Below, piece after piece: positions 8,586 through 55,223 of a DNA stretch of 64,000 nucleotides (within the stretch, counting starts at the first letter, position 1; each line of letters opens with the position of its first letter). Position numbers and translations under genes: made by a program. The DNA is from a virus (Duplodnaviria; Caudoviricetes), in the IMG/VR virus record IMGVR_UViG_3300029288_000005, positions 29,024-93,023 of that record, one strand, 5' to 3'. Under the pieces are notes generated by a model. That model saw nothing but the letters and a program-made list of their open reading frames with translations, was not told where the DNA came from and did not search any database.

Positions 8586-8595
8586 GGTAATAGAC

Positions 8596-8934: not shown

Positions 8935-8936
8935 AG

Positions 8937-29620: not shown

Positions 29621-29641
29621 ACTGTGAAAGGAACATTTACT

Positions 29642-39248: not shown

Positions 39249-39251
39249 GAT

Positions 39252-39914: not shown

Positions 39915-39916
39915 GT

Positions 39917-42900: not shown

Positions 42901-44230
42901 ATCTGAAAAATCCAGCAGTTCTAAATCAAGTTCATCATCTTATAGTTCTTTGTCTTCAGAATCTTCCAGTTCAAACAGTTCATCTAGTGTTCTACTAGAC
43001 AATTTAATAGACGGTCGTAACTTCACAGTAGTAATCTCCTATGAGTACAGCTACTACACCAATGAGATAAATCCAAACTGTGGGTTCTGTCGGTGGGTAT
43101 GGGAAGACACTTGGATTGAGTATTCTGATGGTTCAACACTATATCTTCCTCCCATCTGGACTTTTCACCCAGAAATGTCTGAGTGTTCTACAGGTATTAT
43201 GGGATATGGCTTTGTGGGGCCTTGTGCGTGTACAGTAACAACACCCCCGTTTGATGGCTCTTACGTGGGACAGCAAGTTGAGTTCCCTTGTGTACAAACA
43301 TACTGGCCGGGGGAGGCCACTTCATTTATTGAGACTTGGACCATCACCCCAGCACACAACCACGCCCCCACTATAATAGATGATGCATGCTTCTGTGATG
43401 ACCAACCGTTGGAGAGTTCCAACTCGATGTCCTATAGTAGTATATCGGTTTCCAGTAAGTCAAGCAAATCAAGCAAATCCAGTGTATCTAGCAAGTCCAG
43501 TAAGAGTAGTTCAAGTGTTAGTGCCTTGAGTACTTCTAGTATGTCGAGTAGTGTTTCTGAAAGTAGTATATCTTTGTCAAGTGCAAGCAGTATATCTTTG
43601 TCAAGTGCAAGCAGTCAGAGTGTATCAAGTGCAAGCAGTATATCTTTGTCAAGTGCAAGCAGTCAGAGTGTATCAAGTGCAAGCAGTATATCTTTGTCAA
43701 GTGCAAGCAGTCAGAGTGTATCAAGTGCAAGCAGTATATCTTTGTCAAGTGCAAGCAGTCAGAGTGTATCAAGTGTTAGTTATACAAGTACTTCTAGCGG
43801 AGAATTGTTTCCACCTTGCAATAAATACATATACGTTACTTTTTCAGGTTGGACTACTTGTGTGGGAGGCACACCTTCAGATTGTTCTCTAGTAAATGGT
43901 ACCTACTACCCTTATTTTCATGATAAAACAGCATGCGACTATGTAAACGGAGGAGAGACCTGGGAGTATTGGTATAAATTTCAACTCTCAGTGGGATCGA
44001 CATTCTGTGGTGTGCCTGGAGGTGTTTTGTACTTTGATGTTATTATCACAGGAGATTGCACTCCAGGGGATGTGGAAACAAGTGATAATATGCATGCTCA
44101 AGTGTATTGTGTTACTTTAGGTCGTTGGGAAGCAGATGTGGTTTGTGGGGAGAACACTCTAACAATAAGTTGGAATGCTGGTACTTGTGATCCTTCAGGT
44201 GTGGTTTGTAAAATCTTCCTAAATGGGTAG
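39917..44230 (+). CDS. Large tail fibre/receptor-binding protein with two poly-Ser tracts and Cys-rich modules
   Basis: 1437 aa, Y/W-rich beta domains; Ser tracts at about 42736-42988 and 43414-43797. Confidence 0.7.
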   Translation: MTSQPDWFLNPPGKRSSGDTGIVFYDAFSNYDPEQNFSFGTSAWDPGQKWEVVSGNWRLVEAYPGEVYYTKQEYVWGTQSQALVGGGGYNIGPRWWDVNSYTYFAKVVSWEVSAEPLHYFFNRYNETSYTPESAILVTLDMGTENHFLRKGEILHTNYQDIEEHSQMTYWGSEYSRIWSVDGQFVTILLPDYFYYETYYYYRLLVTSYYGYNPNRIGGFELKPDRYLSKGKIRNIHPDNSVDIALEDGHYVQRRGKIWKEYPEKNWVNVGFPWKVNKSNETRLLSNYSWFVEIERDVDQNDGTFKDEIHVECPPTWYETDSEWHFWPPVGSEVYVSCRFSPVPGTTTKLTLTNYKTFTVLQFQWPYGWLSCDGHDFEVGEILTVAFTDQSISGLCKVVSVSGNNLVVDVSVNDFYIAPTYYGEYWHWGHHQSNFNFLQRAIYSNNNFQDEETKHYYRKPLWLYYVISDYRNLEIPASRNTSFTTSHTRPNNFPQIEGTYEGQRLLNPTRKHKFLSGTGVIKVKTPVLDENIKITVVLPRDKQQNTVHLYFGCTENISTGYCLEYEPYPTGDSFSYTGVISKVSMGTDPGYPAFYGLILGYEITFGFQLRTYYESLVDISWEGGIRRDIYMHRFIPDPCGSTTTIWTNTDYHGIAPSLGWGDPLPPLGTTVTVTSKPWGYMRLYGPSGLCDQVVRHSGDTLSLNLWRDGSGNLIATAFRGNTTSFLTSTDYGYLSTSSVPYAIEACLGDSSYHLPGNYIALGGDGVNIDVITVEKIDAEDCIKLSALRKGYYSYGAIGVTSTAADQVFLPGTLPNCLKVEITGNHADGLNYGEPEVYPWKFSDRLGTFYLPLRKTGATGDDLTVGGPYYDRSSAWILDKSGGPICTPIAVILAAKYENTQECLWGITGLNNTMGPGNYDYSANISGSCRSFDFYYTPVTEWSSSSVSSESQTSTSKSSRLSSSSLEHSYSSQSSSSSVSSHSSSSSKSESSSVTSESEKSSSSKSSSSSYSSLSSESSSSNSSSSVLLDNLIDGRNFTVVISYEYSYYTNEINPNCGFCRWVWEDTWIEYSDGSTLYLPPIWTFHPEMSECSTGIMGYGFVGPCACTVTTPPFDGSYVGQQVEFPCVQTYWPGEATSFIETWTITPAHNHAPTIIDDACFCDDQPLESSNSMSYSSISVSSKSSKSSKSSVSSKSSKSSSSVSALSTSSMSSSVSESSISLSSASSISLSSASSQSVSSASSISLSSASSQSVSSASSISLSSASSQSVSSASSISLSSASSQSVSSVSYTSTSSGELFPPCNKYIYVTFSGWTTCVGGTPSDCSLVNGTYYPYFHDKTACDYVNGGETWEYWYKFQLSVGSTFCGVPGGVLYFDVIITGDCTPGDVETSDNMHAQVYCVTLGRWEADVVCGENTLTISWNAGTCDPSGVVCKIFLNG
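43565..43780 (+). repeat. 24-bp tandem repeat (units A=SISLSSAS, B=SQSVSSAS; order AABABABAB)
   Basis: agtatatctttgtcaagtgcaagc / agtcagagtgtatcaagtgcaagc; last unit imperfect. Confidence 0.92.
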
Positions 44231-44239: not shown

Positions 44240-44665
44240 ATGTTACTTTGTGATTTTCAGAAACAGAAAGGGATATGTAAGTGTGTGCGGTGCGGGTTTC
44301 TGGATATAAGTGGAAGTGATATTTGTACTGATCTGTGGAGAAAGTGTGACGTGCAAGACACAACTTTTACTTCAAATAACAACACTAGTCCCAATATAGA
44401 GTTAGTAGAAGAAGCGGCAGAAAAATTAGGGATAATATGGCAAGATGCTGTTCATTACACAGCTGCTTTAATCGGATGGTCGTTGGCAGGTTTTCCCACA
44501 CGTGACAAAGATATTACTAAGCATATTGAAGAACAAATTTGCAAAACGTGTACAGAGTATTTGAAAGGGCGTTGCAAGGCTTGCCGTTGTAGAGTGAATA
44601 AAAGTATTGCGTTGGTGAACAAAATACGAATGGCTACAGAGAAATGTCCGAAGGATAAATGGTAG
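44240..44665 (+). CDS. Cys-rich protein (paralog A)
   Basis: CxxC...CxxCxC...NKIRMATEKCPKDKW. Confidence 0.75.
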   Translation: MLLCDFQKQKGICKCVRCGFLDISGSDICTDLWRKCDVQDTTFTSNNNTSPNIELVEEAAEKLGIIWQDAVHYTAALIGWSLAGFPTRDKDITKHIEEQICKTCTEYLKGRCKACRCRVNKSIALVNKIRMATEKCPKDKW

Positions 44666-44669
44666 AGAT

Positions 44670-45149
44670 ATGAGCAAGTGTAAGTGGCATAAAATACAAG
44701 AGGAAACATTACCCAGTCTACTAGCATGGCAGTGCTCAGTGTGTGGGCGGAAAATAGGGTTGACCAAGCAACAACTAATAGACGTGTTTGGTGACAGTGT
44801 AGAAAAGTTGTTTGAAAAGCAACCCGATTGCTTGGGACTGCAAGCTAAAAAAGAGCATGAAGAAAAGTATAAGGTACAAGAGCCTTGTGATGAAAGCAAG
44901 GAAGATGGTATCACCTGGGAGAAAACCAAACAGTGGCTTGATGCTGTGAAGAGGTGGACTCTTGCAGGTTTTCCTGCTAGATCTATGGAAGAAGTTGAGG
45001 AGATATACAATAACAAGTGTAGTGTCTGTGATGGTATGCTACCTACCGGTTCCTGTAGGTTTTGTGGTTGCAAGATCAACAAGAGCAAAATTGCGTTGCT
45101 TAACAAGATACGTATGAAAACCGAAAAATGTCCAAAGGATAAATGGTAG
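44670..45149 (+). CDS. Cys-rich protein (paralog B)
   Basis: LAGFP...CxxC...CRFCGC...NKIRMKTEKCPKDKW. Confidence 0.75.
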   Translation: MSKCKWHKIQEETLPSLLAWQCSVCGRKIGLTKQQLIDVFGDSVEKLFEKQPDCLGLQAKKEHEEKYKVQEPCDESKEDGITWEKTKQWLDAVKRWTLAGFPARSMEEVEEIYNNKCSVCDGMLPTGSCRFCGCKINKSKIALLNKIRMKTEKCPKDKW

Positions 45150-45153: not shown

Positions 45154-46227
45154 ATGAGCAATTGTGTGTACCAAGGAGAGGGTACTGGGGAGTTTGTTGC
45201 AGAGTGCTACCTAAAGAAAACCTGTAACAAAAAAGAAGAGCAAAAGTGTGGTGGGCGATTAGAGATGGAAGACCCGCAGTTTTTGACAAAGTGGGAAGAT
45301 CCTCTACTAATACTAGATCGCAAAAAGAACCCCACCACAGCCCTTCGTGGCTTGTTGGCTGGTGGGATAGGGTTTCTAGTGGGAGGGGGCCCCTCTACCA
45401 AAGCACAACCACTAGAATTGCTCAATAACCGGGGAATCTTTACATTGTCTGTAAATAACTCAGCCGCACACCCGAGATTTCGTTCATCTGCGTTTGTTTG
45501 CTCTGATCCACCACTAAAGTTCTCAAACTCCATATGGTTTGACCCCCACGTGATGAAATTCGTTCCCTCTCCCAAGATGTCAGGTAATAGGGAACGACTG
45601 CGGGAGAAGAGAAATGGTGTTTTTACTAGGTCAGAGCGGAAAGTAACCGATTGTCCAAACATCTGGGGATTCAAACGACTCAGTTGGTTATGGCCAGATG
45701 AGAGGTTTTTCTTAAGTGATGGTGCCTGCTGGGGAAACCACGATGTAGGAGTGCAAAAGACCAAAGAGCAGAAAACAGTATGTACCATGCTACTGGGTTT
45801 ACGGATACTCTATTATATGGGAGCGAGGACTATTTTCCTTGTTGGAGTGGACTTCTTTATGACACCATCGGGTGTATACTCATTCAACCAGAGCAAGAGT
45901 GAGGGGGGTTGTAATTCAAACAACAGACAGTTTGAGGTGGTAAATGGGTGGCTGTGTCGAATGCAAGAGAATGGTATATTTGACAAGTTTGGTGTGAAGT
46001 TGTTTAACTGTTGTGAGAATAGTGGTCTTCGCGCATTTCCACACGTATCATTCGAAACAGCAATCGAGTTGGCTACTGCGGATGTGGAGCAGGTTCCGGA
46101 CTTGTGTGGTTGGTATGAGAAAGGCCAGTGTGATGCTTGCAAATCGGAGCACTTACGTTGGGATGGCATTACCGCAATGTGCTTGGATTGTGGGGAGTCG
46201 ATACAAATAAGAAAAGTCATAGACTGA
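45154..46227 (+). CDS. Maf/DUF115-like (sialyltransferase-fold) glycosyltransferase
   Basis: FLVGGGPS, LSVNNS, YMGARTIFLVGVDF, LFNC...SGLRAF. Confidence 0.65.
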   Translation: MSNCVYQGEGTGEFVAECYLKKTCNKKEEQKCGGRLEMEDPQFLTKWEDPLLILDRKKNPTTALRGLLAGGIGFLVGGGPSTKAQPLELLNNRGIFTLSVNNSAAHPRFRSSAFVCSDPPLKFSNSIWFDPHVMKFVPSPKMSGNRERLREKRNGVFTRSERKVTDCPNIWGFKRLSWLWPDERFFLSDGACWGNHDVGVQKTKEQKTVCTMLLGLRILYYMGARTIFLVGVDFFMTPSGVYSFNQSKSEGGCNSNNRQFEVVNGWLCRMQENGIFDKFGVKLFNCCENSGLRAFPHVSFETAIELATADVEQVPDLCGWYEKGQCDACKSEHLRWDGITAMCLDCGESIQIRKVID

Positions 46228-46229
46228 TC

Positions 46230-46258
46230 TTGTAAGATAAAATGGTACATTATAAAAT
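46230..46258 (+). promoter_or_regulatory. Possible sigma70 promoter
   Basis: TTGTAA-17 bp-TAAAAT in an intergenic gap. Confidence 0.4.
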
Positions 46259-46300
46259 AAGGTAACAAGTTAACAAAACCCTATTTACAAGGAAGTAAAG

Positions 46301-46723
46301 ATGAAAACGGATTTTCAACCCTTCGTTAGCAATTGGATCAACTGTAAAGAAGAGTTACCCCCTCTTAATCTTGTTGTGTTCTTTACCAACGGCAAGTGTG
46401 TATGGATGGGAAAGATACTACAGGACGAGTATGGGGATCCTGTGTGGTACAGAAGTGAGTCATGCCCAATCTGGAACGTGGAAGAAAAGAAATGGGTATC
46501 TGACAATGTTCCTTGTATGAAAGAGCCTACACACTGGTGTATGATGCCTGTATCCCCAGTTGCCAAGAAAGCAAGAACGGCATTTCAAATCTTATTTCTC
46601 TCATTTCTCTTTTATGGATTTACTACACTCATTCTGCAGTACAATATGGGGGTGATCCAGGTGTTTCCTCTGATATCATTAGTTGTTAGTTCTTTCTTCT
46701 GTGGACACTTAGTAGATAAATAA
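46301..46723 (+). CDS. DUF551-like domain with C-terminal TM helices
   Basis: WINCKEELP...PTHWCMMP. Confidence 0.6.
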   Translation: MKTDFQPFVSNWINCKEELPPLNLVVFFTNGKCVWMGKILQDEYGDPVWYRSESCPIWNVEEKKWVSDNVPCMKEPTHWCMMPVSPVAKKARTAFQILFLSFLFYGFTTLILQYNMGVIQVFPLISLVVSSFFCGHLVDK

Positions 46724-46724
46724 A

Positions 46725-47105
46725 ATGCTCCCTACTTATAACATACCACCTATTGGACCCAGACAAGGAAAAATCTGGGGAAAGACTCAGTTGGTATTTG
46801 CACACAATTCAACTGAGACCCATATAATAGAAGCGAAGAGAGGTTTTAGGTGTAGCTGTCATAGTCATAGGTACAAGTGGAATCGTTTTGTTGTGATTTC
46901 TGGTAAACTTGAAGTGCGAGTATATCAGGATGACAAAGTAGTTGATGTTACCACTCTGGGACCATGGCAGGTGACAGATGTTCCCCCGGGAACCAGACAT
47001 GAGTTTGCTGCTGTGGAAGACACAACAGCAGTTGAACTTTACTGGGTTACACTTGATGCCCAAGACATTGATAGACATGGTACTATAGGAGGAAAAATAG
47101 AATGA
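46725..47105 (+). CDS. Cupin-domain protein (possible sugar isomerase)
   Basis: CSCHSHRYK..F.VISG, VPPGTRHEF. Confidence 0.8.
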   Translation: MLPTYNIPPIGPRQGKIWGKTQLVFAHNSTETHIIEAKRGFRCSCHSHRYKWNRFVVISGKLEVRVYQDDKVVDVTTLGPWQVTDVPPGTRHEFAAVEDTTAVELYWVTLDAQDIDRHGTIGGKIE

Positions 47106-47350
47106 ACACTAGGGAGGCCTTCCTCAAATTTTATAATTACGAAAAAGAAGTAAAAGAAGGACTACGAAAGATAGTAAGTACATCCCGTTTTGGGTTAAGT
47201 GCAGTGGTTGAAGTCTATGATCAAGTAAAAGACTTGAAATTGGTACAGGAAATAATCAAAACAGCGGATGAAAAAAACCTACCACCCATAAATGTCGTTT
47301 GTATGGGTTTAACTAGTGAGGAGAATAAATGTGAATGCCAAAGAAGCTAG
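47102..47350 (+). CDS. Hypothetical protein
   Basis: ATGA-coupled ORF. Confidence 0.55.
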   Translation: MNTREAFLKFYNYEKEVKEGLRKIVSTSRFGLSAVVEVYDQVKDLKLVQEIIKTADEKNLPPINVVCMGLTSEENKCECQRS

Positions 47351-47624
47351 AGAGATTACCATAAAGTGCTCAGAGCAACAGAGAAAAGAGCTTCAATTAC
47401 GGGCAAGAGAAATCTTAGCAGAAGCACAGAAAGAAATAGAGAAAGCAGCTGGAAAAGGTTTTTGTGCTACAACGTTAACAAATTGCTTTTTGATTGGAAC
47501 CTTTCCTTGTCAACAATTATCTGAGATGGTAATGGAGAAACTCAAAGAAGATGGTTTTATTTGTTGTCTCATGGAAGGGAATAATTCACTGGGCATTACT
47601 TGGTAATTTGAAAGGAGTAAATAG

Positions 47625-48191
47625 ATGCTATTTGACTATCAACCCAGTATACAGACACATACGGGCAGGATATTTCGACCTTTTGCTGATGAATGGTACG
47701 ATATCGACATACGTGACATTGCTCACTCACTATCCAACCTCTGTAGATTCAATGGTCATTGCAAGCAGTTCTACTCGATTGCACAACACTCTGTACTAGT
47801 GTCAAATCTGTTGGGGGATGGTAAAGAGTATTGTGATAAACAGTGCAAGCTACTGGCACAGTGGGGTTTGCTACATGATGCCCCAGAGGCTTACATGGGC
47901 GACATTCCCAGTCCCATAAAATCAGGAGAGCACCTGTTTCTGGAGTTGAGAATGCTGGAGGCAATTGGGCAGAAACTTGGTCTTCGTAAACTACGGGAGA
48001 TAGAGAAAAAGACAGTTTTAGTAGCTGATAAACAACTCCTAGCAACAGAAAAACGAGATCTGATGGAAGTAAACATACCATGGCCAGGACTAACAGGAAT
48101 CAAAGCACTTGGTTATACAATCGAACCTCTGCTATCTGATAGAGCCGAAGATTTGTTCTTGAAGCGCTATAGTGAGTTGTTTGGGGATTGA
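47625..48191 (+). CDS. HD-domain nucleotide phosphohydrolase (YfbR/DatZ-like)
   Basis: DIAHSLSNLCRFNGH, YSIAQHS, LLHDAPEAYMGD. Confidence 0.9.
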   Translation: MLFDYQPSIQTHTGRIFRPFADEWYDIDIRDIAHSLSNLCRFNGHCKQFYSIAQHSVLVSNLLGDGKEYCDKQCKLLAQWGLLHDAPEAYMGDIPSPIKSGEHLFLELRMLEAIGQKLGLRKLREIEKKTVLVADKQLLATEKRDLMEVNIPWPGLTGIKALGYTIEPLLSDRAEDLFLKRYSELFGD

Positions 48192-48193
48192 GC

Positions 48194-48973
48194 ATGCCTG
48201 TATTTACCGACTATACCCTTGTGTGCGGGGTGGATAGAAAACACCTAAACCAACTAAGGCTCACCTACCCAACATGGATCAAAACAAAGCCCTCATTATT
48301 GAAACAACCAATGCTGTTGTTCTATGATTGTAACCAGCTAACTCACTCTGAAGTTAGTCGCACCATCAACCACCCAGATATTACAATCACACCGTGGCCA
48401 CCTGCTGGTGTTACGTATGAAGGTGACAACAGCAAGTGGTATGATGCTCAAAGATATAAGATGCTGGCTGGATTTGTTCATATACCTGGTCAGCATGTAA
48501 AGACAAGTTACTGGTTGAAACTAGACACTGATGTAGTTGCCACTGGACAGGATGATTGGATAGATCCAAGTTGGTTTGATGACAGTCCTCTTATTGTATC
48601 ACACCCATGGTCGTTTACCAAGCCCGCCGACCAGATGATGATTCTGGATGAATGGTCTCGGAGGGATGAAGTTCTAAAAAACCACCCACCACTAAATCTG
48701 ATACCAAAACCTGGTGCGGATAGACTTGGACACAGGCGAATTATAAGTTGGTGTGCCTTTTTTGCCACTACCTTTACCGCCTTTTGTTCTGTTTGTACAG
48801 AAGACTCAAAACTGCCAGTGCCGTCGCAGGATGGCTATATGTGGTATTTAGCAACTCTATTGGGAGGTGTTGTAAAGAGGGTGCAAATGAAGACCAGAGG
48901 ATGGGAGCACTGGTGCACAGACAACAACATCAGATTGGCAGTAGAAAGAGTTATGGAACAGCAACGTGCATAG
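48194..48973 (+). CDS. GT-A fold glycosyltransferase
   Basis: YWLKLDTD (DxD), SQD motif. Confidence 0.65.
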   Translation: MPVFTDYTLVCGVDRKHLNQLRLTYPTWIKTKPSLLKQPMLLFYDCNQLTHSEVSRTINHPDITITPWPPAGVTYEGDNSKWYDAQRYKMLAGFVHIPGQHVKTSYWLKLDTDVVATGQDDWIDPSWFDDSPLIVSHPWSFTKPADQMMILDEWSRRDEVLKNHPPLNLIPKPGADRLGHRRIISWCAFFATTFTAFCSVCTEDSKLPVPSQDGYMWYLATLLGGVVKRVQMKTRGWEHWCTDNNIRLAVERVMEQQRA

Positions 48974-49634
48974 AAGTATTCTTGTACACATTCCCAGAAC
49001 TGGTGGTATGTCAGTTAGAACGTATATGGAGTCTAGGTATACTAGTTTTAACCTGGTATTCGAAAACAGAGACACTGTACTAACAATTCCCAAAGATGTG
49101 GAGTTTATTTCAACCAACCATGCAGCAATGAGAAAAGTTTTTGCTCGAGGTTTGATGAATAAAAGAGTATGGGACAACTCGTTCAAGTTCTGCTTCGTTC
49201 GAAATCCCTGGGATAGATTGGTTTCTGTTTACAAATACTACTGTGGTTTTCGTAGAAAGAAAAATTACAAGTCTAACTGTTTATTGGAAACATTTGATAT
49301 CTTTGTAAGTAGGGTTATCGGAAATGGTGAGTATTTAACAGGATTAAAAGTCAGGAATTCCCAACCCCACTTTAATCATGCTCTTCCCCAGACAAGTTGG
49401 ATAGAGGAAGGCGTAAACTACATTGGCAGATTCGAAAGGCTGGGAGAGGACTGGAAAGAGGTTTGTGATTTGATGTGTATAAAGTACGAGCCTTTGCCCG
49501 TAGTAAACAGATCGCAACATTTCCATTATAGCAGATACTATACAGCAGAATCTAAGAGGGTGGTTTCAAAGTTTTACGAGCAGGAAATTGAATTGTTTAA
49601 GTACAGATTTGAGGATAGTAGAAATGGCAAGTAA
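48966..49634 (+). CDS. Sulfotransferase (family 2)
   Basis: HIPRTGGMS (5'-PSB loop), FVRNPWDRLVSVY (3'-PB), IGRFERL. Confidence 0.9.
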   Translation: MHRSILVHIPRTGGMSVRTYMESRYTSFNLVFENRDTVLTIPKDVEFISTNHAAMRKVFARGLMNKRVWDNSFKFCFVRNPWDRLVSVYKYYCGFRRKKNYKSNCLLETFDIFVSRVIGNGEYLTGLKVRNSQPHFNHALPQTSWIEEGVNYIGRFERLGEDWKEVCDLMCIKYEPLPVVNRSQHFHYSRYYTAESKRVVSKFYEQEIELFKYRFEDSRNGK

Positions 49635-50364
49635 GTTCCTACGTAGATCGGGAATAGCTGTTGGTCTGATGATGGAGCAACTCAACTGGGTACCCGAACT
49701 AGTTGTGCAAGTGGGCATTGGTTTCTTCCATGAAGAGGTGTATGCCCTGCGTGACGAGTTTGAAATTATCTTGGGTGAAAAGTCCCGTTTGATGAAGCGG
49801 GAGTGGCCAAACACCACATTCTTGGGTTTTGAAGCACACCCAGATTCTGCTAAGAAAATCAAGGACTATCCAGGAGAGATTCGAAACAAGGCCATAAGCG
49901 ACAGAAGTGGAACTGTCAAGTTGTTCTCAAAAAGACGACACAAGGACGGATCATCATTGGAAATCTTTAATGCGGACATAGAGGATGTCCAGGAACTTGA
50001 AGTGGCTTGTAGTACGTTGGACAAAGAGGTAGAGTATGAGGGTAACAATGCTCTACTGTGGTTGGACTGTGAAGGCTCCGAATTGAAAGCCATGCAAGGA
50101 GGTTTGGATTTCCTCAAGCGGGTCAAGGTGATAAATATAGAGATGACACCCAACCCACCTTCTTCATGCTGGCCTTCTACAGTGGACTTGCATGAGTTTA
50201 TCTCGCAGCAAGGTTTCTATCGTCAGTGGATTCACACTTTACGAAATGGCCAGTATGACGCAATATACGTTAGACCAGATATATTCAAGGCCTCTTGCTG
50301 TTGTTGTCCTTATACTATTTTGGAATTCATGGGTGTTAAGAAAGGATATTTTGATGCGAAGTGA
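49624..50364 (+). CDS. FkbM-family methyltransferase
   Basis: VVQVGIG, GFEAHP, TLD, LWLDCEGSELKAMQG. Confidence 0.85.
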   Translation: MASKFLRRSGIAVGLMMEQLNWVPELVVQVGIGFFHEEVYALRDEFEIILGEKSRLMKREWPNTTFLGFEAHPDSAKKIKDYPGEIRNKAISDRSGTVKLFSKRRHKDGSSLEIFNADIEDVQELEVACSTLDKEVEYEGNNALLWLDCEGSELKAMQGGLDFLKRVKVINIEMTPNPPSSCWPSTVDLHEFISQQGFYRQWIHTLRNGQYDAIYVRPDIFKASCCCCPYTILEFMGVKKGYFDAK

Positions 50365-51265
50365 AAGAATTTTCTACTTGATGTCAGGTGCTGCACACCT
50401 TCCTTACTTGGTTTGTTCACTCTATACACTACGTGACCACTACGATGGTCCTGTATTTGTGTATGCTTGGTCTGAGTCGATCGATATTGTGGAAGAGATT
50501 GCAAAAGATCCAAGATTAAGAATTGAACCTCGTTATAGAGAACCTGCCCATAAGTCCAAGAATGCCCAATTTATGGACAAGATCCAGTTAGCACAAGATC
50601 AACAAGGAGCTGTGGATAAAGTTCTCTACTTAGATGCTGATACAACGATACACGGAAAACTTGACAAGTTGTTTGTTGCTGCTAAGAAGAAGGGTTTTGT
50701 GGCAACGCAGTTCTGTGATTGGAAAAGCAATCAGGGCATTCCTTCCAAGAGGATTGACAAGCTCAAGCAGTACCCAGAGATAAACCAGCAGGCGGTGGAC
50801 AGTTGTCTCAACAGCCCTTGGCCTAGTGTGAATGGTGGGGTCTGGGCGGCTAGGACGAATACAGCAATCTTACCATTCTGGTACAAATATACGAAGATAG
50901 CACAGAATGAGTTTATTGCAGATGAAGTTGTTTTACACACTCTGCTGCCTATTTTCTACTCTGCTGATGATTTAGTAGACAAAGATGGTCTAACTGTGAT
51001 AGAGGAGAAGGGCCGTTTCAATAATAGTGCCATAAAGAAGTTCCAGTGTAAGGATTTACGGGACGAAGACGTTGTGGTTATGCACTACCATGGAGACAGC
51101 AATGTACGTCCTGATAAGAGTGTGCGTGGATTTGAACTCTGGTGGCCACTGTTTCAGCATTGTGTGGAAGCAAACGTTGGTCGTATTGCTAACTGGATTG
51201 ATAAGATTGATAACAATTGGATGAAAAAAGTCCAACAGAACTTGGAAAAGGAGATTGAAAAATGA
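50354..51265 (+). CDS. GT8-like glycosyltransferase
   Basis: VLYLDADT, VNGGVW, ADEVVL, MHYHG. Confidence 0.8.
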   Translation: MRSERIFYLMSGAAHLPYLVCSLYTLRDHYDGPVFVYAWSESIDIVEEIAKDPRLRIEPRYREPAHKSKNAQFMDKIQLAQDQQGAVDKVLYLDADTTIHGKLDKLFVAAKKKGFVATQFCDWKSNQGIPSKRIDKLKQYPEINQQAVDSCLNSPWPSVNGGVWAARTNTAILPFWYKYTKIAQNEFIADEVVLHTLLPIFYSADDLVDKDGLTVIEEKGRFNNSAIKKFQCKDLRDEDVVVMHYHGDSNVRPDKSVRGFELWWPLFQHCVEANVGRIANWIDKIDNNWMKKVQQNLEKEIEK

Positions 51266-51921
51266 GAGAAAAAGATATCAAAAACAGAGAGAAATACCAA
51301 TTTACTCGAAACTGGTTCCTTAACAGGAACCTGGATACTTTTAGGAACTTTGTACTTCCTACATGGGAAAACAAACCAATTACTTACTTAGAAATTGGTG
51401 TGTTTGAAGGCATGTCCTTAACCTGGATGTTACAGTATGTACTTACACATCCAGATGCACGGGCGGTAGGTATTGATCCATGGTTGGTTACCACCAAACT
51501 CTCTGGGGATATTATGGAACAGGTCATGTCTAGGGCTTTATACAACGTAAGTACAGCTGGAAAAGCATGGGCCAGCCTGCCTGGAATAGAACATGTTGTC
51601 TACAAGGGTTCTCTGGTACGTGGCAACAGTGCTGAGGTATTGCGAATTATGAACTCCCGGGGTTTGTTGGGAATATCAAGAAACTCAGTAGACCTCTGTA
51701 TGATTGACGGAAACCACAACGACTATGCTGCATATGACGATGCTGAGCAATGTCTGCCATTGGTTAAACCTGGCGGATGGTTGTTGTTTGATGACGTGGA
51801 AAATCAGGTAACAAAGAAAAGACACGTCAAGCAGGGATTGGAAATGTTCGTCAAGGACTATAGGGACAAGGTCAATTTTATCTGGAAAGACAGATACATG
51901 GAGTGCTTTGAAGTACTATGA
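51262..51921 (+). CDS. Class I SAM methyltransferase (Methyltransf_24-like)
   Basis: YLEIGVFEG, IDPW, IDGNH, LVKPGGWLLFDD. Confidence 0.88.
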   Translation: MREKDIKNREKYQFTRNWFLNRNLDTFRNFVLPTWENKPITYLEIGVFEGMSLTWMLQYVLTHPDARAVGIDPWLVTTKLSGDIMEQVMSRALYNVSTAGKAWASLPGIEHVVYKGSLVRGNSAEVLRIMNSRGLLGISRNSVDLCMIDGNHNDYAAYDDAEQCLPLVKPGGWLLFDDVENQVTKKRHVKQGLEMFVKDYRDKVNFIWKDRYMECFEVL

Positions 51922-52985
51922 GTAGACGTGAGAAAACAAACTTACTAGTAGGTGATTTGATACAGAAGATAAACAGAAGATACCTGGTAGGCTGTGAAGT
52001 GGGGGTTTGCGAAGGTTGTCTTTCTTCTTACTTATTACAACGATTTCCCAAGTTGTTTCTCTATATGGTCGATTCCTATGAGGATAAGAATATCTGGGGA
52101 CGAGTGACCGCTGAGAAAGCCATACACACAGCGTACAAATCCACTTGTGCGTTTGTCAATCGTCGCTCAATAGTGGTATCACGGTCAGAACAGGCTGTAC
52201 AGAACATAGCAGACCAATCATTGGATTTTGTTTACATAGATGCAGATCATACTTACAAGCAAGTAAAGAATGATCTTTACTTATGGATGCCCAAAGTCAA
52301 GGATGGTGGCATTCTAATGGGGCATGACTACGACAGCCGAATGGAAAAGAAAGGTTTGTATATGGGTGTGAAGCGGGCAGTGGATGAATTCGCAAAACAC
52401 AATGGACTTTTAGTGCAGTCTGCTGGTATGTTGATCTGGTGTTGTTCAATTTACAACAAAACCGGTAGTTATGAGTCCTTGGCTTCCCAACTGCGGTCTT
52501 TTCGCTTTGACGAGAAGAAATACAAAGCTATAACATCTATAATAGGTGTAGAAGAGCCAATAATAGACCTGGGTGCGGGCATAGGCAAGTACGTAGCCAA
52601 GTTACGGTCGGATGGATGGTCTTGTGTAAACGGTATTGATGGTGCTGCTGACGTAGAGGAATTTACCAATGGCTTGATTAAACGACTCGACCTGACAACT
52701 CCAAACCTAAAAAACAAACTCAGAAAAGAATACGATTGGGCACTGTTTTTTGAAGTTGGGGAACACATATCTAGAAAGTATGAGCAAGTGCTGATTGACA
52801 ACGTTTGCTCAATTCCTCGTAAGGGAATTATCATGTCCTGGGGACTTCCCGGACAAAAGGGTTACAGGCATGTCAACTGCCAAAGCAGAAGTTATATAAT
52901 AAGACAGTTTCAAGCAAGGGGTTTTGCTCAAATTGAAATCAACACCGAGAGTAAAAACATTCTGGTGTTTAGGAGAAAACCATGA
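51918..52985 (+). CDS. Tandem double methyltransferase
   Basis: EVGVCEG...DFVYIDADH...GGILMGHDY, then IDLGAGIG...EVGEHI...GQKGYRHVNCQ. Confidence 0.85.
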   Translation: MSRREKTNLLVGDLIQKINRRYLVGCEVGVCEGCLSSYLLQRFPKLFLYMVDSYEDKNIWGRVTAEKAIHTAYKSTCAFVNRRSIVVSRSEQAVQNIADQSLDFVYIDADHTYKQVKNDLYLWMPKVKDGGILMGHDYDSRMEKKGLYMGVKRAVDEFAKHNGLLVQSAGMLIWCCSIYNKTGSYESLASQLRSFRFDEKKYKAITSIIGVEEPIIDLGAGIGKYVAKLRSDGWSCVNGIDGAADVEEFTNGLIKRLDLTTPNLKNKLRKEYDWALFFEVGEHISRKYEQVLIDNVCSIPRKGIIMSWGLPGQKGYRHVNCQSRSYIIRQFQARGFAQIEINTESKNILVFRRKP

Positions 52986-53470
52986 TTGACGTTGGGCCTT
53001 TTCAATTTGGTTGCTGCCCCTATACCAATACTGATTGGTATCTAGGTGCTCTAAGAATGGCAGGATTCGAATTTCCAGCAACAGTTACTGAAGAAGTTCC
53101 CAAACCAGAAGCTATTCCCGGTAAGTTGAAAGTGACTCTGATAAGCAACCCATTTAGAATGGCCTATCTATATTGGACACAGAACACATGCCAAGAGTAT
53201 TTTCGTTTTGTAGATTTTCTCGAGTGGTTGCCTGACAAAAAACCGGGTCTCTTTACAAGTATGGTCAATACTTTTCAAGCGGATGTTGTTCATCGAAGTG
53301 AAGATTGCCCATGGTGTCTCCTGGAGTTGTTGGCCTCTTTTGATATAAGACTAAACCTGGCAAGGTGTCTAAAAGGGCCTGTTGTGGTATTGCCCAGTCT
53401 TCCTGAGTGGGTTAAGAACAAGTTTAAGATGAGTGAGAAGGAGTTATTTGATAGATATGATTACTGGTAA
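52982..53470 (+). CDS. Degenerate sulfotransferase-like protein
   Basis: Weak echoes (PYTNTDW, ISNPF, RSED, ELFDRYDY) of the neighbouring sulfotransferases. Confidence 0.35.
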   Translation: MIDVGPFQFGCCPYTNTDWYLGALRMAGFEFPATVTEEVPKPEAIPGKLKVTLISNPFRMAYLYWTQNTCQEYFRFVDFLEWLPDKKPGLFTSMVNTFQADVVHRSEDCPWCLLELLASFDIRLNLARCLKGPVVVLPSLPEWVKNKFKMSEKELFDRYDYW

Positions 53471-54215
53471 GGTGGAGTTTGTTACTCACTGCTATGCAAC
53501 AAAATTGACCCACTTCGCAACTGCCCTATACTTGCAGTTGTCGTCGTTGGCTAATGCCGCGAATACGAGCAACAACAACATTAAGGTAACAGTATTCTAC
53601 AACCAAGAAGATTTACAAACAGCACACGTATTAAATCTGTTTGAGGATGACAAACGGCGAAAGAATCTAGAGTTGGTCAAGCAACATCTACCAGTAGATC
53701 AATTGGGCAGGCGTTCGATAGGTAGAAACATGGCTGCTAAGAACACTGATGCAGATATTGTGTGGTTCGCCGATGTTGACTATTGGTTTGGGGCTACTGT
53801 GACCAATGATCTACTGTCAATAGAGTGGAACAACAACACCACCATGGTATTTCCCGGAAAAATACAAATAAGTAAAAGCCATGAAGTGGGCGATAAGACC
53901 CTAAAATACTACTCCAGTATACTCACACCAGATCCATTGAACCGCCCCCCATTCACTCCACATATGCAAGTGAGGGATTACGACGAGAAGATTTATTACA
54001 AAGCAATTGGGGGTGTACAAATAGTCAGAGGTGATTTTGCTCGGGAGCATGGTTATGTTCCAAACAGTAAATGGCAGAAACCAGTGAAAATACCGTTTGG
54101 TGACTTCAGGGATGACATAGCATATAGAAGTTTCTGCCGCTCAGTGGGAACCATTTTACCGGTGGATTTAGATGGTGTTTTTAGAATAAGACACTCGGAG
54201 ACAAGTTATCAATAA
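53457..54215 (+). CDS. GT2-like glycosyltransferase
   Basis: RSIGRNMAAKNTDADIVWFADVD. Confidence 0.8.
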   Translation: MITGKVEFVTHCYATKLTHFATALYLQLSSLANAANTSNNNIKVTVFYNQEDLQTAHVLNLFEDDKRRKNLELVKQHLPVDQLGRRSIGRNMAAKNTDADIVWFADVDYWFGATVTNDLLSIEWNNNTTMVFPGKIQISKSHEVGDKTLKYYSSILTPDPLNRPPFTPHMQVRDYDEKIYYKAIGGVQIVRGDFAREHGYVPNSKWQKPVKIPFGDFRDDIAYRSFCRSVGTILPVDLDGVFRIRHSETSYQ

Positions 54216-54895
54216 TGGTGCGATTCCTTGTAGAGAAAAAAGCGTTGATGCTGCACATACCCAGGACTGGTGGCACCTGGTTTGAGAGGGCGTTGGATAA
54301 GACTGAAATACGGAGCAGTAGGTGGGTAAAAAAACAACCTGAGTTCTATCCAAAGAAACACTGTCTGTTATCCCACATGAGCAGAAAGGACATGGCCAAG
54401 GTTAACTTTGTCTTTGCCTTTGTTCGACATCCAATTGCATATTACGAGTCGGTGTGGAAGTGGATGAGTCGAAAGAATTACTCCCGATTGATAAGGAAGC
54501 GTTGGAGATGGCATCCCCACAGAACCGCTGTTATGCAGTATAGGCGGGCCAGTGGTTTTAACGACTGGGTGTGCAGAATGTTGAAAAACAGACCATGTTG
54601 GTATACTAGGTTGGTAGAACAATATGTGGGTCCAGAGGGGGGTGAATTCTGTGATTTCATTGGAAGAACAGAGACTCTAATTGAAGACTTTATGCTCCTA
54701 CTAAATGAGTTGGGTTATAATGAGCAAGTGCCCCCAGAGAATGAGCTCAGGTGTATGGAGAGGCACAACTCAATTGACATGCGAATTGTCTGGGACAGAA
54801 AATTACAGGCACAAGTGCTACAACAAGAAGTGTTAGTCTTGAACAGATTCTATGAAGGTACAAACTTAGAGCGCAGGTGGTACAACAATGTATAG
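54215..54895 (+). CDS. Sulfotransferase (family 2)
   Basis: LHIPRTGGTW, FVRHPIAYYES, IGRTETL. Confidence 0.88.
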   Translation: MVRFLVEKKALMLHIPRTGGTWFERALDKTEIRSSRWVKKQPEFYPKKHCLLSHMSRKDMAKVNFVFAFVRHPIAYYESVWKWMSRKNYSRLIRKRWRWHPHRTAVMQYRRASGFNDWVCRMLKNRPCWYTRLVEQYVGPEGGEFCDFIGRTETLIEDFMLLLNELGYNEQVPPENELRCMERHNSIDMRIVWDRKLQAQVLQQEVLVLNRFYEGTNLERRWYNNV

Positions 54896-55145
54896 GTTAC
54901 ACTCAATTCTTCTCAATTTTGAGGACTTCAAGAAACACTTTGGGCCAAGACTAGCCGCTGCTCGAAAAAATCGTGGATTTACACAAGAGGTGTTAGCCAA
55001 CAAATTGCATACTACACAAGAAACAATCTCATTCTATGAAACAGGAAAGTTATTGCCCGGTCGCAAAACCCTTGATCGAATAGCTTCTGTGTTGCAAATC
55101 GATCGTTTCTACTTCGAATCCGTTCAAACCACTAAGTGGTTCTAA
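54888..55145 (+). CDS. XRE-family HTH regulator
   Basis: RLAAARKNRGFTQEVLA...ISFYETGK. Confidence 0.9.
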   Translation: MYRLHSILLNFEDFKKHFGPRLAAARKNRGFTQEVLANKLHTTQETISFYETGKLLPGRKTLDRIASVLQIDRFYFESVQTTKWF

Positions 55146-55195: not shown

Positions 55196-55223
55196 TTGAC
55201 AATATAGACAAAAACCCTATAAT
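55196..55223 (+). promoter_or_regulatory. sigma70 consensus promoter (early)
   Basis: TTGACA-16 bp-TATAAT, with AT-rich upstream sequence. Confidence 0.75.

What the first reader, a model, noticed from the sequence alone, without database searches (positions are those of the whole stretch)
45154..54895. Sulfated and methylated glycan machinery paired with mucin-like poly-Ser virion proteins
Seen: directly after the tail genes lie about 4 glycosyltransferases (Maf-like, GT-A, GT8-like, GT2-like), 2-3 sulfotransferases, 4 methyltransferase domains and a cupin. Four structural-region genes (8310, 26469, 33586, 39917) carry 30-135 aa Ser/Thr tracts. Known: some mycobacteriophages glycosylate capsid and tail proteins with their own GTs; Maf proteins O-glycosylate flagellin Ser/Thr. 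Inference: the phage builds a sulfated, O-methylated glycan coat on dedicated Ser scaffolds, for shielding, host-surface mimicry or adhesion. Alternatives are DNA hypermodification or host surface conversion.
Basis: partly seen in the sequence, partly recalled or inferred. Interest (0 to 1): 0.8.

Follow-up and report, generated by a model that had tools for sequence, protein, structure and literature searches.

The report
Phage serine tails with sugar-coating genes
An uncultured 93-kb phage hangs long runs of serine on its particle proteins and encodes, right behind its tail genes, a conserved set of sugar-transferring, methylating and sulfating enzymes, so it probably sugar-coats its own particle, although no attached sugar has been measured.

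Summary
Window 45154-54895 encodes, on one strand and mostly with overlapping stops and starts:
- a Maf/sialyltransferase-fold enzyme;
- one clear GT-A glycosyltransferase and two weaker ones (GT8-like, TarP-like);
- two canonical carbohydrate-type sulfotransferases and one degenerate one;
- four SAM-methyltransferase domains;
- a WbuC-like cupin.

Only four plus-strand ORFs in the 93-kb genome carry Ser tracts (42-147 aa). Three lie in the particle-gene block.

In 13 fetched relatives, four transferases plus one methyltransferase always follow the tail genes. Across 36 informative records, the Ser tail on the tube-position protein and the Maf-like gene go together: 25 of 25 with both, 11 of 11 with neither. 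The tree needs only two changes, so shared descent is not excluded. Distant Maf-like genes in GC-rich phages directly abut Ser-rich proteins, which adds independent support.

Canonical sulfotransferases are missing from 3 of 13 relatives. The HD phosphatase is not a conserved member. The genome has no thymidylate-synthase-like gene and no sugar-nucleotide or PAPS genes. This argues against DNA modification and means the host must supply the donors.

Most likely (about 0.6) this is cytoplasmic O-glycosylation of the Ser tails, decorated with methyl and sulfate groups. It is a new variant of virion glycosylation known from mycobacteriophages. This scan has already flagged the same system in other genomes.

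The parts
26469..27197 (+). Head-block protein: a roughly 100-aa N-domain followed by a 147-aa poly-Ser tail. Candidate acceptor.
   Evidence: Translation, tract census. It lies upstream of the protease/scaffold gene 27785-29620 and the major capsid gene 29624-31282. Homologues with Ser tails are present in 12 of 13 related genomes. The Ig/FN3-like lead for the N-domain is weak (atlas score 0.77).
33586..34479 (+). Probable major tail (tube) protein, assigned by gene position. 176-aa N-domain plus a 121-aa poly-Ser C-terminal tail. Candidate acceptor.
   Evidence: It lies after four connector-size ORFs and before the chaperone-size ORFs and the tape measure gene 35995-38277. The tract is shown. 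In the wider family, 91 members have a Ser tail and 80 are tail-less proteins of at most 200 aa, some cut short by contig ends. No named family matched.
39917..44230 (+). 1437-aa distal tail or fibre protein with two internal Ser tracts (98 and 133 aa). Candidate acceptor.
   Evidence: The second tract holds a perfect 48-bp x4.1 tandem repeat at 43577-43775. The homologue in the closest relative G001 has the same two tracts.
8310..8585 (+). Small ORF with a 42-aa Ser-rich tract and a duplicated 16-aa C-terminal unit. Its role is unknown.
   Evidence: Homologues were found only in G001 and G013. A structural role is not shown.
44240..45149 (+). Two paralogous Cys-rich (zinc-ribbon-like) proteins, 44240-44665 and 44670-45149. 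Possible accessory partners of the Maf-like enzyme.
   Evidence: They share a C-terminal Cys motif. The same domain is fused to the N-terminus of the Maf-like enzyme in relative G010.
45154..46227 (+). Maf/sialyltransferase-fold glycosyltransferase (MptE-like/DUF115 superfamily). Candidate initiating O-glycosyltransferase.
   Evidence: The model has pLDDT 85. VIA-align: Maf 5mu5 Z 13.4 (200 aa, rmsd 3.9), MptE HPPK 10.8, CstII 10.3, sialyltransferases about 10. PF01973 is hit by 8 of 13 family members, best E 6e-5. The G-P-S of the GGGPS motif is invariant. The gene is present in all 13 Ser-tailed relatives.
46301..46723 (+). 140-aa protein with a hydrophobic C-terminus. Not a conserved member of the cluster.
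   Evidence: Hydropathy maximum 2.02. A homologue was found only in G001.
46725..47105 (+). Small metal-binding cupin, WbuC-like. Possibly acts on a sugar.
   Evidence: Cupin_2 E 6e-6, TIGR04366 WbuC E 7e-6 and below its cut-off. Present in 11 of 13 relatives.
47625..48191 (+). HD-domain dNMP phosphatase. A passenger gene, not part of the conserved cluster.
   Evidence: phrog_318 E 5e-51. In G004, G007, G008 and G010 the homologue lies elsewhere in the genome.
48188..48973 (+). GT-A fold glycosyltransferase with a D-x-D motif. Core member.
   Evidence: The model has pLDDT 94. All top Foldseek hits are GT-A enzymes, down to E 7e-8. D113 and D115 are invariant. Present in 13 of 13 relatives.
48966..49634 (+). 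Carbohydrate-type sulfotransferase (Sulfotransfer_2). Accessory member.
   Evidence: PF03567 at 52.6 bits, phrog_3347 at 6e-20. Both PAPS motifs are visible in the translation. By blastp, close homologues are in only 3 of 13 relatives.
49588..50364 (+). FkbM-family SAM methyltransferase.
   Evidence: PF05050 at 2.7e-11, TIGR01444 at 47.4 bits and above its cut-off. Present in 9 of 13 relatives.
50354..51265 (+). GT8-like GT-A glycosyltransferase. Core member. The start is probably the ATG at 50354 rather than 50192.
   Evidence: PF01501 at 18.1 bits, below the cut-off of 24.3. The family profile hits glycogenin at E 0.2. D148, A149 and D150 are invariant, and the family consensus begins at residue 55 of the long ORF. 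Present in 13 of 13 relatives.
51262..51921 (+). Methyltransf_24 class I SAM methyltransferase.
   Evidence: PF13578 at 8.8e-18. Present in 4 of 13 relatives.
51918..52985 (+). Two-domain methyltransferase (Methyltransf_24 plus Methyltransf_23). The first domain is a core member.
   Evidence: PF13578 at 1.2e-15 and PF13489 at 3.5e-6. A homologue is present in 13 of 13 relatives, mostly as the single first domain.
52982..53470 (+). Divergent sulfotransferase-fold protein. Its PAPS-binding loop is degenerate in this phage.
   Evidence: hhalign against the sulfotransferase family: probability 98%, E 2e-13. Present in 12 of 13 relatives. Alignment.
53433..54215 (+). GT2/TarP-like GT-A glycosyltransferase. 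Core member.
   Evidence: The family profile hits TarP 6h1j at E 1.1e-5. D114 and D116 are invariant. Present in 13 of 13 relatives. Pfam GT2 gives no hit.
54215..54895 (+). Second carbohydrate-type sulfotransferase (Sulfotransfer_2).
   Evidence: PF03567 at 27.3 bits, above its cut-off. Canonical sulfotransferases are present in 10 of 13 relatives by HMM search.
54888..55145 (+). HTH_3 regulator that closes the operon. A consensus promoter follows it at 55196-55223.
   Evidence: PF01381 at 8.5e-12. TTGACA-16-TATAAT, 12 of 12 matches.

Best explanation
The cluster is a phage-encoded system, expressed late, that O-glycosylates the phage's own particle proteins in the host cytoplasm. The acceptors are the disordered poly-Ser tails on three proteins: a head-block protein, the probable major tail protein and the distal tail/fibre protein. 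The Maf/sialyltransferase-fold enzyme (45154-46227) is the best candidate for putting the first sugar on Ser. The three GT-A enzymes would extend the glycan. The FkbM and Methyltransf_24/23 enzymes would O-methylate it, and the two Sulfotransfer_2 enzymes would sulfate it. The host would supply the sugar nucleotides, SAM and PAPS.

Shown here: the enzyme folds and families, the Ser tracts, the conserved gene order behind the tail genes, and the co-distribution of tails and enzymes.

Inferred: which protein is the acceptor, which enzyme starts the chain, what the sugars are, whether sulfate and methyl groups end up on the glycan, and what the coat is for.
For: 1. The families and folds of all the enzymes are established.
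2. None of the transferases, sulfotransferases or methyltransferases has a membrane-spanning segment of its own (hydropathy maxima; the highest among them, 1.72 in the GT-A enzyme, lies in a beta-strand of a pLDDT-94 globular model). None of the cluster's ORFs matched a flippase or polymerase family. The cluster's one hydrophobic ORF, 46301-46723, is not conserved. The enzymes should therefore act on a cytoplasmic target.
3. The cluster begins 10 nt after the fibre gene stop. Most of its genes overlap stop to start. The first perfect sigma-70 consensus promoter (12 of 12 matches) comes only after the cluster, at 55196.
4. Such Ser tracts occur in only four plus-strand ORFs of the genome, and all six Ser codons are used.
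5. In 13 of 13 fetched relatives with Ser-tailed proteins, the Maf-like gene, three GT-A genes and one methyltransferase lie directly behind the tail genes.
6. In the family of the tube-position protein, 25 of 25 informative Ser-tailed records have the Maf-like gene. None of 11 tail-less records has it. The tail-less set includes a 100%-complete 51.6-kb genome and G012, which nests inside the Ser-tailed clade.
7. Independent recurrences exist. In GC-rich phages without this tube family, a Maf-like gene 30% identical to this one follows the tail genes and a methyltransferase, and is directly followed by a Ser/Gly-rich protein of about 500 aa. That happens in 10 loci, and about 17 of 25 informative distant loci have a Ser/Thr-rich ORF within 2 kb. 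Second Maf paralogues lie 1.4-1.7 kb from giant Ser proteins in G004 and L178.
8. The precedents are real. Maf enzymes O-glycosylate Ser/Thr of flagellin in the cytoplasm (established knowledge; PDB 5mu5). Mycobacteriophages glycosylate capsid and tail tube proteins with their own transferases (Freeman et al. 2023, as summarised in PMC12363180).
Against: - No chemical evidence exists for any modification.
- The co-distribution needs only two changes on the tree, and only one is forced by well-supported branches. Joint inheritance without a functional link is therefore not excluded, and the sign test has no power.
- Homologues of the Maf-like enzyme in Planctomycetota and Verrucomicrobiota genomes often sit next to homologues of the GT-A and GT8-like genes. 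They have no Ser tracts within 10 kb, and in Verrucomicrobia they are fused to a polysaccharide pyruvyl transferase. The ancestral substrate may therefore be a glycan, not a protein.
- Eight distant phage loci with a Maf-like gene show no Ser-rich ORF in their flanks.
- The window protein falls below Pfam's cut-off for PF01973 and lacks the flanking domains of true Maf proteins.
- The major capsid protein itself has no Ser tail.
- The phage encodes no donor-synthesis genes.
- Canonical sulfotransferases are missing in 3 of 13 relatives.
Confidence: 0.6

Rival explanations
1. The enzymes modify something other than the virion, such as a host envelope glycan or glycolipid, or a soluble or lipid-linked polysaccharide made during infection. 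The Ser tracts would be unmodified flexible linkers or 'hairs' that travel with the cluster only because both were inherited together.
For: Cellular homologues of the Maf-like, GT-A and GT8-like genes sit together in Planctomycetota genomes with no Ser tracts nearby. In Verrucomicrobia they are fused to a polysaccharide pyruvyl transferase. The cupin resembles WbuC of O-antigen clusters. Only two evolutionary changes underlie the co-distribution. Poly-Ser linkers without known glycosylation exist in bacterial carbohydrate-active enzymes (papers listed).
Against: None of the cluster's ORFs matched a flippase, polymerase, lipid-carrier transferase or other membrane-enzyme family. Apart from the non-conserved 46301-46723, none has a membrane-spanning segment. 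The cluster is fused to the late tail operon in every relative. Both features are lost together in G012. Maf-like genes directly abut Ser-rich genes in unrelated GC-rich phages.
Confidence: 0.22
2. The Ser tails are modified, but not by a built-up glycan. Possibilities are a single nonulosonic-acid-type sugar per Ser, as on flagellin, or direct O-sulfation or O-methylation. The GT-A enzymes would then serve another target.
For: Maf enzymes transfer single nonulosonic acids (established knowledge). The best structural match of 45154-46227 is Maf.
Against: Three GT-A enzymes are as strictly conserved as the Maf-like enzyme. The sulfotransferases belong to the carbohydrate-type family PF03567. 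No CMP-sugar synthetase is encoded.
Confidence: 0.1
3. The cluster hypermodifies phage DNA by glycosylating, methylating or sulfating modified bases.
For: An HD dNMP phosphatase lies inside the cluster. PHROGs labels the Methyltransf_24 family 'DNA methyltransferase'.
Against: The genome has no thymidylate-synthase-like or hydroxymethylase gene. In relatives the HD gene lies elsewhere. The methyltransferases belong to the FkbM and Methyltransf_24 families. FkbM is an O-methyltransferase of a natural-product pathway, and one Methyltransf_24 protein also gives a borderline hit to the O-methyltransferase family PF01596 (21.7 bits, just under its 22-bit cut-off). The cluster tracks the Ser tails.
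Confidence: 0.03

Closest known systems
Mycobacteriophage virion glycosylation (Che8, Corndog, Myrna; Freeman et al. 2023, Cell Host Microbe 31:1216, as summarised in PMC12363180)
   Same: Phage-encoded glycosyltransferases are proposed to glycosylate the phage's own particle proteins, including the tail tube, inside the host. In both cases a methyltransferase accompanies the transferases. For Corndog the methyltransferase is from my own knowledge and was not checked here.
   Different: The Maf-like enzyme has no tblastn match in 50,697 GenBank phage records. Here the acceptors are dedicated poly-Ser tails 42-147 aa long, and the major capsid protein has none. Here the cluster also holds three sulfotransferase-fold proteins and four methyltransferase domains. 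The hosts are unknown and probably not Actinobacteria. Glycosylation was measured there and is only inferred here.
Maf (motility accessory factor) flagellin O-glycosyltransferases, e.g. Magnetospirillum magneticum Maf, PDB 5mu5; Pfam PF01973 MptE-like/DUF115
   Same: It is the best structural match of 45154-46227 (Z 13.4, 200 residues aligned). The G-x-G-P-S nucleotide-binding motif is shared. Both are cytoplasmic enzymes, and Maf acts on Ser/Thr of a protein that later assembles into an extracellular filament.
   Different: Only the central catalytic domain is shared (357 aa against 632 aa). The flanking Maf domains are absent, and Cys-rich zinc-ribbon-like ends take their place. The Pfam score is below the cut-off. 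No CMP-nonulosonic-acid pathway is encoded. Neither donor nor acceptor is known.
Serine-rich repeat glycoproteins (SRRPs) of Gram-positive cocci, with the GtfA/GtfB initiating pair and GT8-type extending enzymes
   Same: Long Ser-dominated tracts with interspersed Val, Ala and Thr serve as cytoplasmic O-glycosylation scaffolds. GT-A/GT8-type enzymes extend the glycan (established knowledge).
   Different: No GtfA/B pair or accessory Sec system is seen in the cluster, though I did not search for them specifically. The initiating candidate has a Maf fold. The products are virion parts, not adhesins. Sulfation is not known for SRRPs.
The same kind of system noted earlier by this scan in other uncultured phages (e1-5964296, e1-5965883, e1-5964305, e1-3260486, e1-5378218, e1-5378211)
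   Same: Poly-Ser tails on particle-module proteins, with a Maf-like enzyme and helper enzymes directly behind the tail genes.
   Different: Those are AI notes on other genomes. This report adds four things: the tail-less relatives as negative controls, the count of evolutionary changes, the finding that the degenerate sulfotransferase-fold protein is nearly core while the canonical ones are accessory, and the Planctomycetota/Verrucomicrobiota homologues that lack Ser tracts.

Membership tests
Maf / MptE-like (Pfam PF01973, DUF115) glycosyltransferases | Match to PF01973 above the curated cut-off of 34.6 bits | tested here: not met
   The window protein scores 12.2 bits (E 0.15). Eight of 13 family members hit the model, best E 6.1e-5. 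Cellular homologues score 20-23 bits.
Maf / MptE-like (Pfam PF01973, DUF115) glycosyltransferases | Fold of the central catalytic domain of Maf or the CstII-type sialyltransferases | tested here: met
   VIA-align: 5mu5 Z 13.4 (200 aa, rmsd 3.9), 8sd5 10.8, 1ro8 10.3, and about 25 sialyltransferase entries at Z 8.5-10.2. Unrelated folds score 4.2 or less. Foldseek ranks the same families on top.
Maf / MptE-like (Pfam PF01973, DUF115) glycosyltransferases | G-x-G-P-S nucleotide-binding motif at the first strand-helix turn | tested here: met
   The motif reads GGGPS at residues 77-81. G79, P80 and S81 are invariant in 13 sequences.
Maf / MptE-like (Pfam PF01973, DUF115) glycosyltransferases | N- and C-terminal Maf domains flanking the catalytic domain | tested here: not met
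   The protein is 357 aa. Only residues 57-313 align, to 5mu5 residues 254-517 out of 632. The ends are Cys-rich instead.
Maf / MptE-like (Pfam PF01973, DUF115) glycosyltransferases | Transfers a CMP-activated nonulosonic acid to Ser/Thr of a protein | not testable with these tools
   This needs an enzyme assay or glycoproteomics. The phage encodes no CMP-sugar synthetase.
Phage virion glycosylation of the mycobacteriophage type | Phage-encoded glycosyltransferases linked to the structural genes | tested here: met
   The cluster starts 10 nt after the fibre gene stop. The arrangement is conserved in 13 of 13 relatives.
Phage virion glycosylation of the mycobacteriophage type | Acceptor extensions on the capsid and tail tube subunits | tested here: inconclusive
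   A Ser tail sits on the protein in the tube position and on a head-block protein, but not on the major capsid protein. The tube identity rests on gene position only.
Phage virion glycosylation of the mycobacteriophage type | Homology of the transferases to those of Che8, Corndog or Myrna | tested here: not met
   tblastn of the Maf-like enzyme against 50,697 GenBank phage records gave no match. The other transferases were not searched.
Phage virion glycosylation of the mycobacteriophage type | Glycans detected on virion proteins | not testable with these tools
   This needs virions or co-expression, followed by mass spectrometry.
Sulfotransfer_2 (Pfam PF03567) carbohydrate sulfotransferases | Match above the cut-off, with both PAPS-binding motifs present | tested here: met
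   48966-49634 scores 52.6 bits and 54215-54895 scores 27.3 bits (cut-off 22). Both show the P-R-T-G-G loop and the R-x-P motif. P16, R17, T18, G19, R71 and P73 are invariant.
Sulfotransfer_2 (Pfam PF03567) carbohydrate sulfotransferases | The same features, for 52982-53470 | tested here: inconclusive
   hhalign against the sulfotransferase family gives 98%, E 2e-13. There is no Pfam hit, and the PAPS loop in this phage reads P-Y-T-N-T-D.
GT-A fold glycosyltransferases | GT-A Rossmann-like fold with a D-x-D motif (48188-48973) | tested here: met
   The model has pLDDT 94. All 500 counted Foldseek matches have E at or below 0.001, and every listed one is a nucleotide-sugar GT-A-type transferase; the best has E 7e-8. 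D113 and D115 are invariant.
CAZy GT8 (Pfam PF01501) | Match above the 24.3-bit cut-off (50354-51265) | tested here: not met
   18.1 bits, E 2e-3. The family profile hits glycogenin at E 0.2-0.9. The D-A-D motif is invariant. It is GT8-like only.
CAZy GT2 (Pfam PF00535) | Match to PF00535 (53433-54215) | tested here: not met
   No PF00535 match anywhere in the genome at E 0.01 or better. The family profile does hit the GT2 enzyme TarP 6h1j at E 1.1e-5.
Phage DNA hypermodification (glycosylated hydroxymethyl-pyrimidines) | A thymidylate-synthase-like pyrimidine hydroxymethylase in the genome | tested here: not met
   PF00303 has no match in the complete 93-kb genome. The control rang in 10 of 14 reference genomes.

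The most novel reading that the evidence does not exclude
A whole uncultured phage lineage, with no representative among 50,697 deposited phage genomes, builds a mucin-like, methylated and sulfated glycocalyx on dedicated poly-Ser scaffolds along its tail and head. A Maf-fold enzyme borrowed from Planctomycetota/Verrucomicrobiota-type glycan machinery starts the chains. The acidic glycan coat would mimic the sulfated polysaccharides that such hosts bind and take up. On this reading the coat is part of adsorption, not only a shield.
Probability: 0.12. Interest if true: 0.85.

Novelty: new variant of a known kind. Interest (0 to 1): 0.62.

Why it matters
Virion glycosylation in phages has been shown only for a few mycobacteriophages. 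If this reading is right, at least 25 uncultured records of this 80-95-kb phage type, and by gene adjacency several unrelated lineages too, glycosylate themselves by a different route. That route uses dedicated serine scaffolds, a flagellin-glycosylase-like starter enzyme, and methyl and sulfate decorations. Sulfated glycoproteins are very rare in prokaryotic biology.

The system is compact and uses soluble enzymes. It could therefore be tested directly by co-expressing a Ser-tailed protein with the cluster. It would bear on phage adsorption, on how long particles persist in the environment, on recognition by defence or immune systems, and on engineering glycan-coated particles.

Tried and rejected
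I could not inspect the long contigs of the tail-less proteins P0031, P0035 and P0065. I used IMG/VR loci instead.
- **Complex prediction** on a Cys-rich protein (alignment A11) with the Maf-like enzyme (A2) returned no verdict, score 0.01. It counts neither for nor against binding.
- **A joint alignment of all tail-less tube homologues** was too diverse for a locus scan, so I split it.
- **Naming the tube-position protein failed.** The PDB profile search found nothing. PHROGs gave only an unnamed family. The atlas gave only unnamed viral clusters.
- **The head-block N-domain** gave only weak Ig/FN3-like leads, score 0.77.
- **Searches of GenBank phages.** Megablast with the cluster, and tblastn with the Maf-like enzyme and the tube-position protein, found nothing. 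The capsid protein has one remote hit, to a Bacillus phage.
- **No tRNA genes** were found that could hint at a host.
- **The close-relative scan with the fibre protein** found only one near-identical 8-kb contig.
- **The HD phosphatase as part of the system** was rejected, because its position is not conserved.
- **Sulfation as a strictly conserved feature** was rejected for the canonical enzymes, which are in 10 of 13 relatives.
- **Literature searches** found no description of poly-Ser phage proteins paired with a Maf-like enzyme or with sulfotransferases. Freeman et al. 2023 itself is not held in the library.

Full report
**Setting.** The window is bases 29024-93023 of a complete 93,023-bp IMG/VR phage genome with direct terminal repeats. 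Almost all long ORFs are on the plus strand. PHROGs identifies a large terminase (842-2428), a protease/scaffold protein (27785-29620), a major capsid protein (29624-31282) and a tape measure protein (35995-38277). The finding's span follows the 1437-aa distal tail protein (39917-44230).

Pfam, PHROGs and NCBIfam give:
- two Sulfotransfer_2 proteins, 48966-49634 (52.6 bits) and 54215-54895 (27.3 bits). Both are above the 22-bit cut-off, and both show the P-R-T-G-G and R-x-P PAPS motifs;
- an FkbM methyltransferase;
- a Methyltransf_24 protein;
- a Methyltransf_24 + Methyltransf_23 fusion;
- a small cupin that resembles WbuC of O-antigen clusters.

The four proposed glycosyltransferases had no or only weak Pfam hits. 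I therefore collected their homologues from related phages, built alignments A2-A5, and used profiles and structure prediction.
- **45154-46227** folds with confidence (pLDDT 85). Its best structural match is the Maf flagellin glycosyltransferase of Magnetospirillum (5mu5; Z 13.4, 200 residues, rmsd 3.9). The MptE kinase and about 25 sialyltransferase entries follow at Z 8.5-10.8, well clear of unrelated folds at Z 4.2 or less. Eight of 13 family members touch PF01973 (best E 6e-5). The G-P-S of a GGGPS motif is invariant.
- **48188-48973** is a confident GT-A fold (pLDDT 94) with an invariant D-x-D. All 500 counted Foldseek matches have E at or below 0.001, and the listed ones are nucleotide-sugar GT-A-type transferases.
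- **53433-54215** hits the phage-encoded GT2 enzyme TarP at E 1e-5 by profile.
- **The GT8-like gene** stays weak. Its real start is probably 50354.
- **52982-53470** is homologous to the sulfotransferases (hhalign 98%), but its PAPS loop is degenerate in this phage.

Ser tracts are found in exactly four plus-strand ORFs of the whole genome. They use all six Ser codons, so they are selected at the protein level. One perfect 48-bp x4 repeat in the fibre gene shows recent expansion.

**What the Ser-bearing proteins are.**
- 33586-34479 sits where a siphovirus keeps its major tail protein: after four connector-size ORFs and before the chaperone-size ORFs and the tape measure gene. No named family or solved structure matched it, so 'tail tube' rests on position alone.
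- 26469-27197 lies just upstream of the protease and capsid genes. Its N-domain gave only weak Ig/FN3-like leads.
- 39917-44230 is the large distal tail protein.
- 8310-8585 is a small ORF of unknown role. Calling it structural is not justified.

**The co-occurrence test.**
- Homologues of the N-domain of the tube-position protein almost always end in a poly-Ser tail that begins right after a conserved G-R-H-D-D-E-E motif.
- A scan of IMG/VR with this family gave 70 loci. Nearly all also contain a homologue of the head-block protein with a Ser tail about 6.5 kb upstream.
- I fetched 13 related genomes, 41-95 kb. In every one with Ser tails, the Maf-like gene, the GT-A gene, the GT8-like gene, the TarP-like gene and one Methyltransf_24 gene lie in the same order directly behind the tail genes.
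- The degenerate sulfotransferase-fold protein is in 12 of 13 and the cupin in 11. The FkbM gene is in 9, and canonical sulfotransferases are in 10. The HD phosphatase lies elsewhere or is absent.
- One relative, G012, has a tail-less tube homologue. It has no Ser tracts and none of the cluster genes, even at HMM sensitivity, although 60 kb of sequence follows its tube gene.

A search of 1.8 billion representative proteins showed that the family splits into 91 Ser-tailed and 80 tail-less members.

I then fetched loci of the tail-less kind and searched their whole records with the Maf-like profile. No tail-less record has a match. That covers 19 records in all, 11 of which have at least 14 kb of sequence downstream of the tube gene.

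Counting only informative records, the result is 25 of 25 against 0 of 11. On the tree this needs just two changes, only one of which is forced by well-supported branches. The independent-pairs test therefore has no power.

**Independent lines of support.**
- Scanning IMG/VR with the Maf-like family found distant members (about 30% identical) in GC-rich phages that lack this tube family. There the gene follows the tail genes and a methyltransferase, and it is directly followed by a Ser/Gly-rich protein of about 500 aa with a Hint-like core.
- Of 25 distant loci with usable flanks, about 17 have a Ser/Thr-rich ORF within 2 kb, and 12 of those lie within 13 nt of the Maf-like gene (11 of them directly abutting it). 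Eight have none.
- G004 and L178 carry a second Maf paralogue 1.4-1.7 kb from a giant Ser protein. G010 also has a second paralogue.
- In G010 the Cys-rich domain, which this phage encodes as two separate genes (44240-45149), is fused to the Maf-like enzyme. This ties those genes to the enzyme.

**Caveats from cellular genomes.** The same Maf-like subfamily occurs in Planctomycetota and Verrucomicrobiota metagenome-assembled genomes as larger multidomain proteins. These often sit next to homologues of the GT-A and GT8-like genes. They have no Ser tracts within 10 kb, and in Verrucomicrobia they are fused to a polysaccharide pyruvyl transferase. The cassette may therefore have started as glycan-building machinery. 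The same result gives a weak hint about the host.

**Alternatives.**
- DNA hypermodification is unlikely. The genome has no thymidylate-synthase-like gene, the HD gene is a passenger, and the methyltransferases belong to the FkbM and Methyltransf_24 families. FkbM is an O-methyltransferase of a natural-product pathway. One Methyltransf_24 protein also gives a borderline hit to the O-methyltransferase family PF01596 (21.7 bits, just under its 22-bit cut-off).
- Conversion of the host surface is not excluded, but three things weigh against it. None of the cluster's ORFs matched a flippase, polymerase or lipid-carrier transferase family, and apart from the non-conserved 46301-46723 none has a membrane-spanning segment. 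The cluster is fixed to the late tail operon. Tails and enzymes are lost together in G012.
- The phage encodes no APS kinase, no CMP-sugar synthetase, no sugar nucleotidyltransferase and no epimerase. All donors would have to come from the host.

**Operon structure.** The cluster starts 10 nt after the fibre gene stop, and most of its genes overlap stop to start. Weaker promoter-like matches are scattered through the span at about the rate seen in shuffled sequence. The only perfect sigma-70 consensus site (TTGACA-16-TATAAT) is at 55196-55223, just after the HTH gene that closes the cluster.

**Comparison with what is known.**
- The nearest described system is virion glycosylation in mycobacteriophages Che8, Corndog and Myrna (Freeman et al. 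2023, read through PMC12363180; the original paper is not held).
- The present system works like it in outline but differs in enzyme family, in its dedicated poly-Ser acceptor tails, and in its sulfotransferases.
- No GenBank phage carries the Maf-like enzyme or the tube-position protein.
- Literature searches found no description of such a pairing.
- This scan's own earlier notes report the same kind of system in six other uncultured phage genomes. I treated those as leads and re-derived the evidence here.

**Verdict.** Self-glycosylation of the Ser tails is the best explanation (about 0.6). It is a new variant of a known kind, it is still unmeasured, and the comparative support rests on few independent events.

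Noticed in passing
L250, L252, L254, L255 (e.g. L252:14844-15416, L255:14880-15434): GC-rich relatives with genomes of roughly 50 kb have a tail-less homologue of the tube-position protein. Downstream of their tail genes they carry proteins with long poly-Thr runs, yet the Maf-like gene is absent from the whole record. This may be a different acceptor/enzyme pairing, or the runs may be plain linkers.
   Followed up: partly
window 55196-55223: A perfect sigma-70 consensus promoter (TTGACA, 16 nt, TATAAT) lies directly after the HTH gene 54888-55145. It marks the start of the next transcription unit.
   Followed up: no
window 44240-45149; L121:131-1624: Two tandem paralogous Cys-rich proteins end in the same C-x-x-C ... 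C-P-x-x-K-W motif. In relative G010 this domain is fused to the N-terminus of the Maf-like enzyme.
   Followed up: partly
window 43577-43775: A perfect 48-bp tandem repeat (4.1 copies) lies inside the second Ser tract of the fibre gene. It points to recent expansion of the tract by slippage or recombination.
   Followed up: no
G001 90368-92746 (L077); G017 38211-40766 (L131/L132); G007 8554-10584 (L103): Some relatives encode giant proteins of 676-851 aa, of which 400 to more than 700 residues are Ser tract. This window has only the small ORF 8310-8585 as a possible counterpart.
   Followed up: no
L228:7994-11467, L230:4853-8344: In Verrucomicrobiota genomes (Prosthecobacter, Akkermansia), the homologous Maf-like domain is part of proteins of about 1160 aa that also carry a polysaccharide pyruvyl transferase domain.
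   Followed up: partly
L198:10729-12237: In a GC-rich phage, the Ser/Gly-rich protein that follows the distant Maf-like gene has a Hint-like (intein/hedgehog-type) core between its two low-complexity arms.
   Followed up: no
window 47625-48191: An HD-domain dNMP phosphatase (phrog_318, E 5e-51) is inserted in the glyco cluster of this phage only. Relatives keep it in other parts of the genome.
   Followed up: partly
window 8470-8585: The small Ser-rich ORF ends in two exact copies of a 16-residue unit, encoded by a direct DNA repeat.
   Followed up: no
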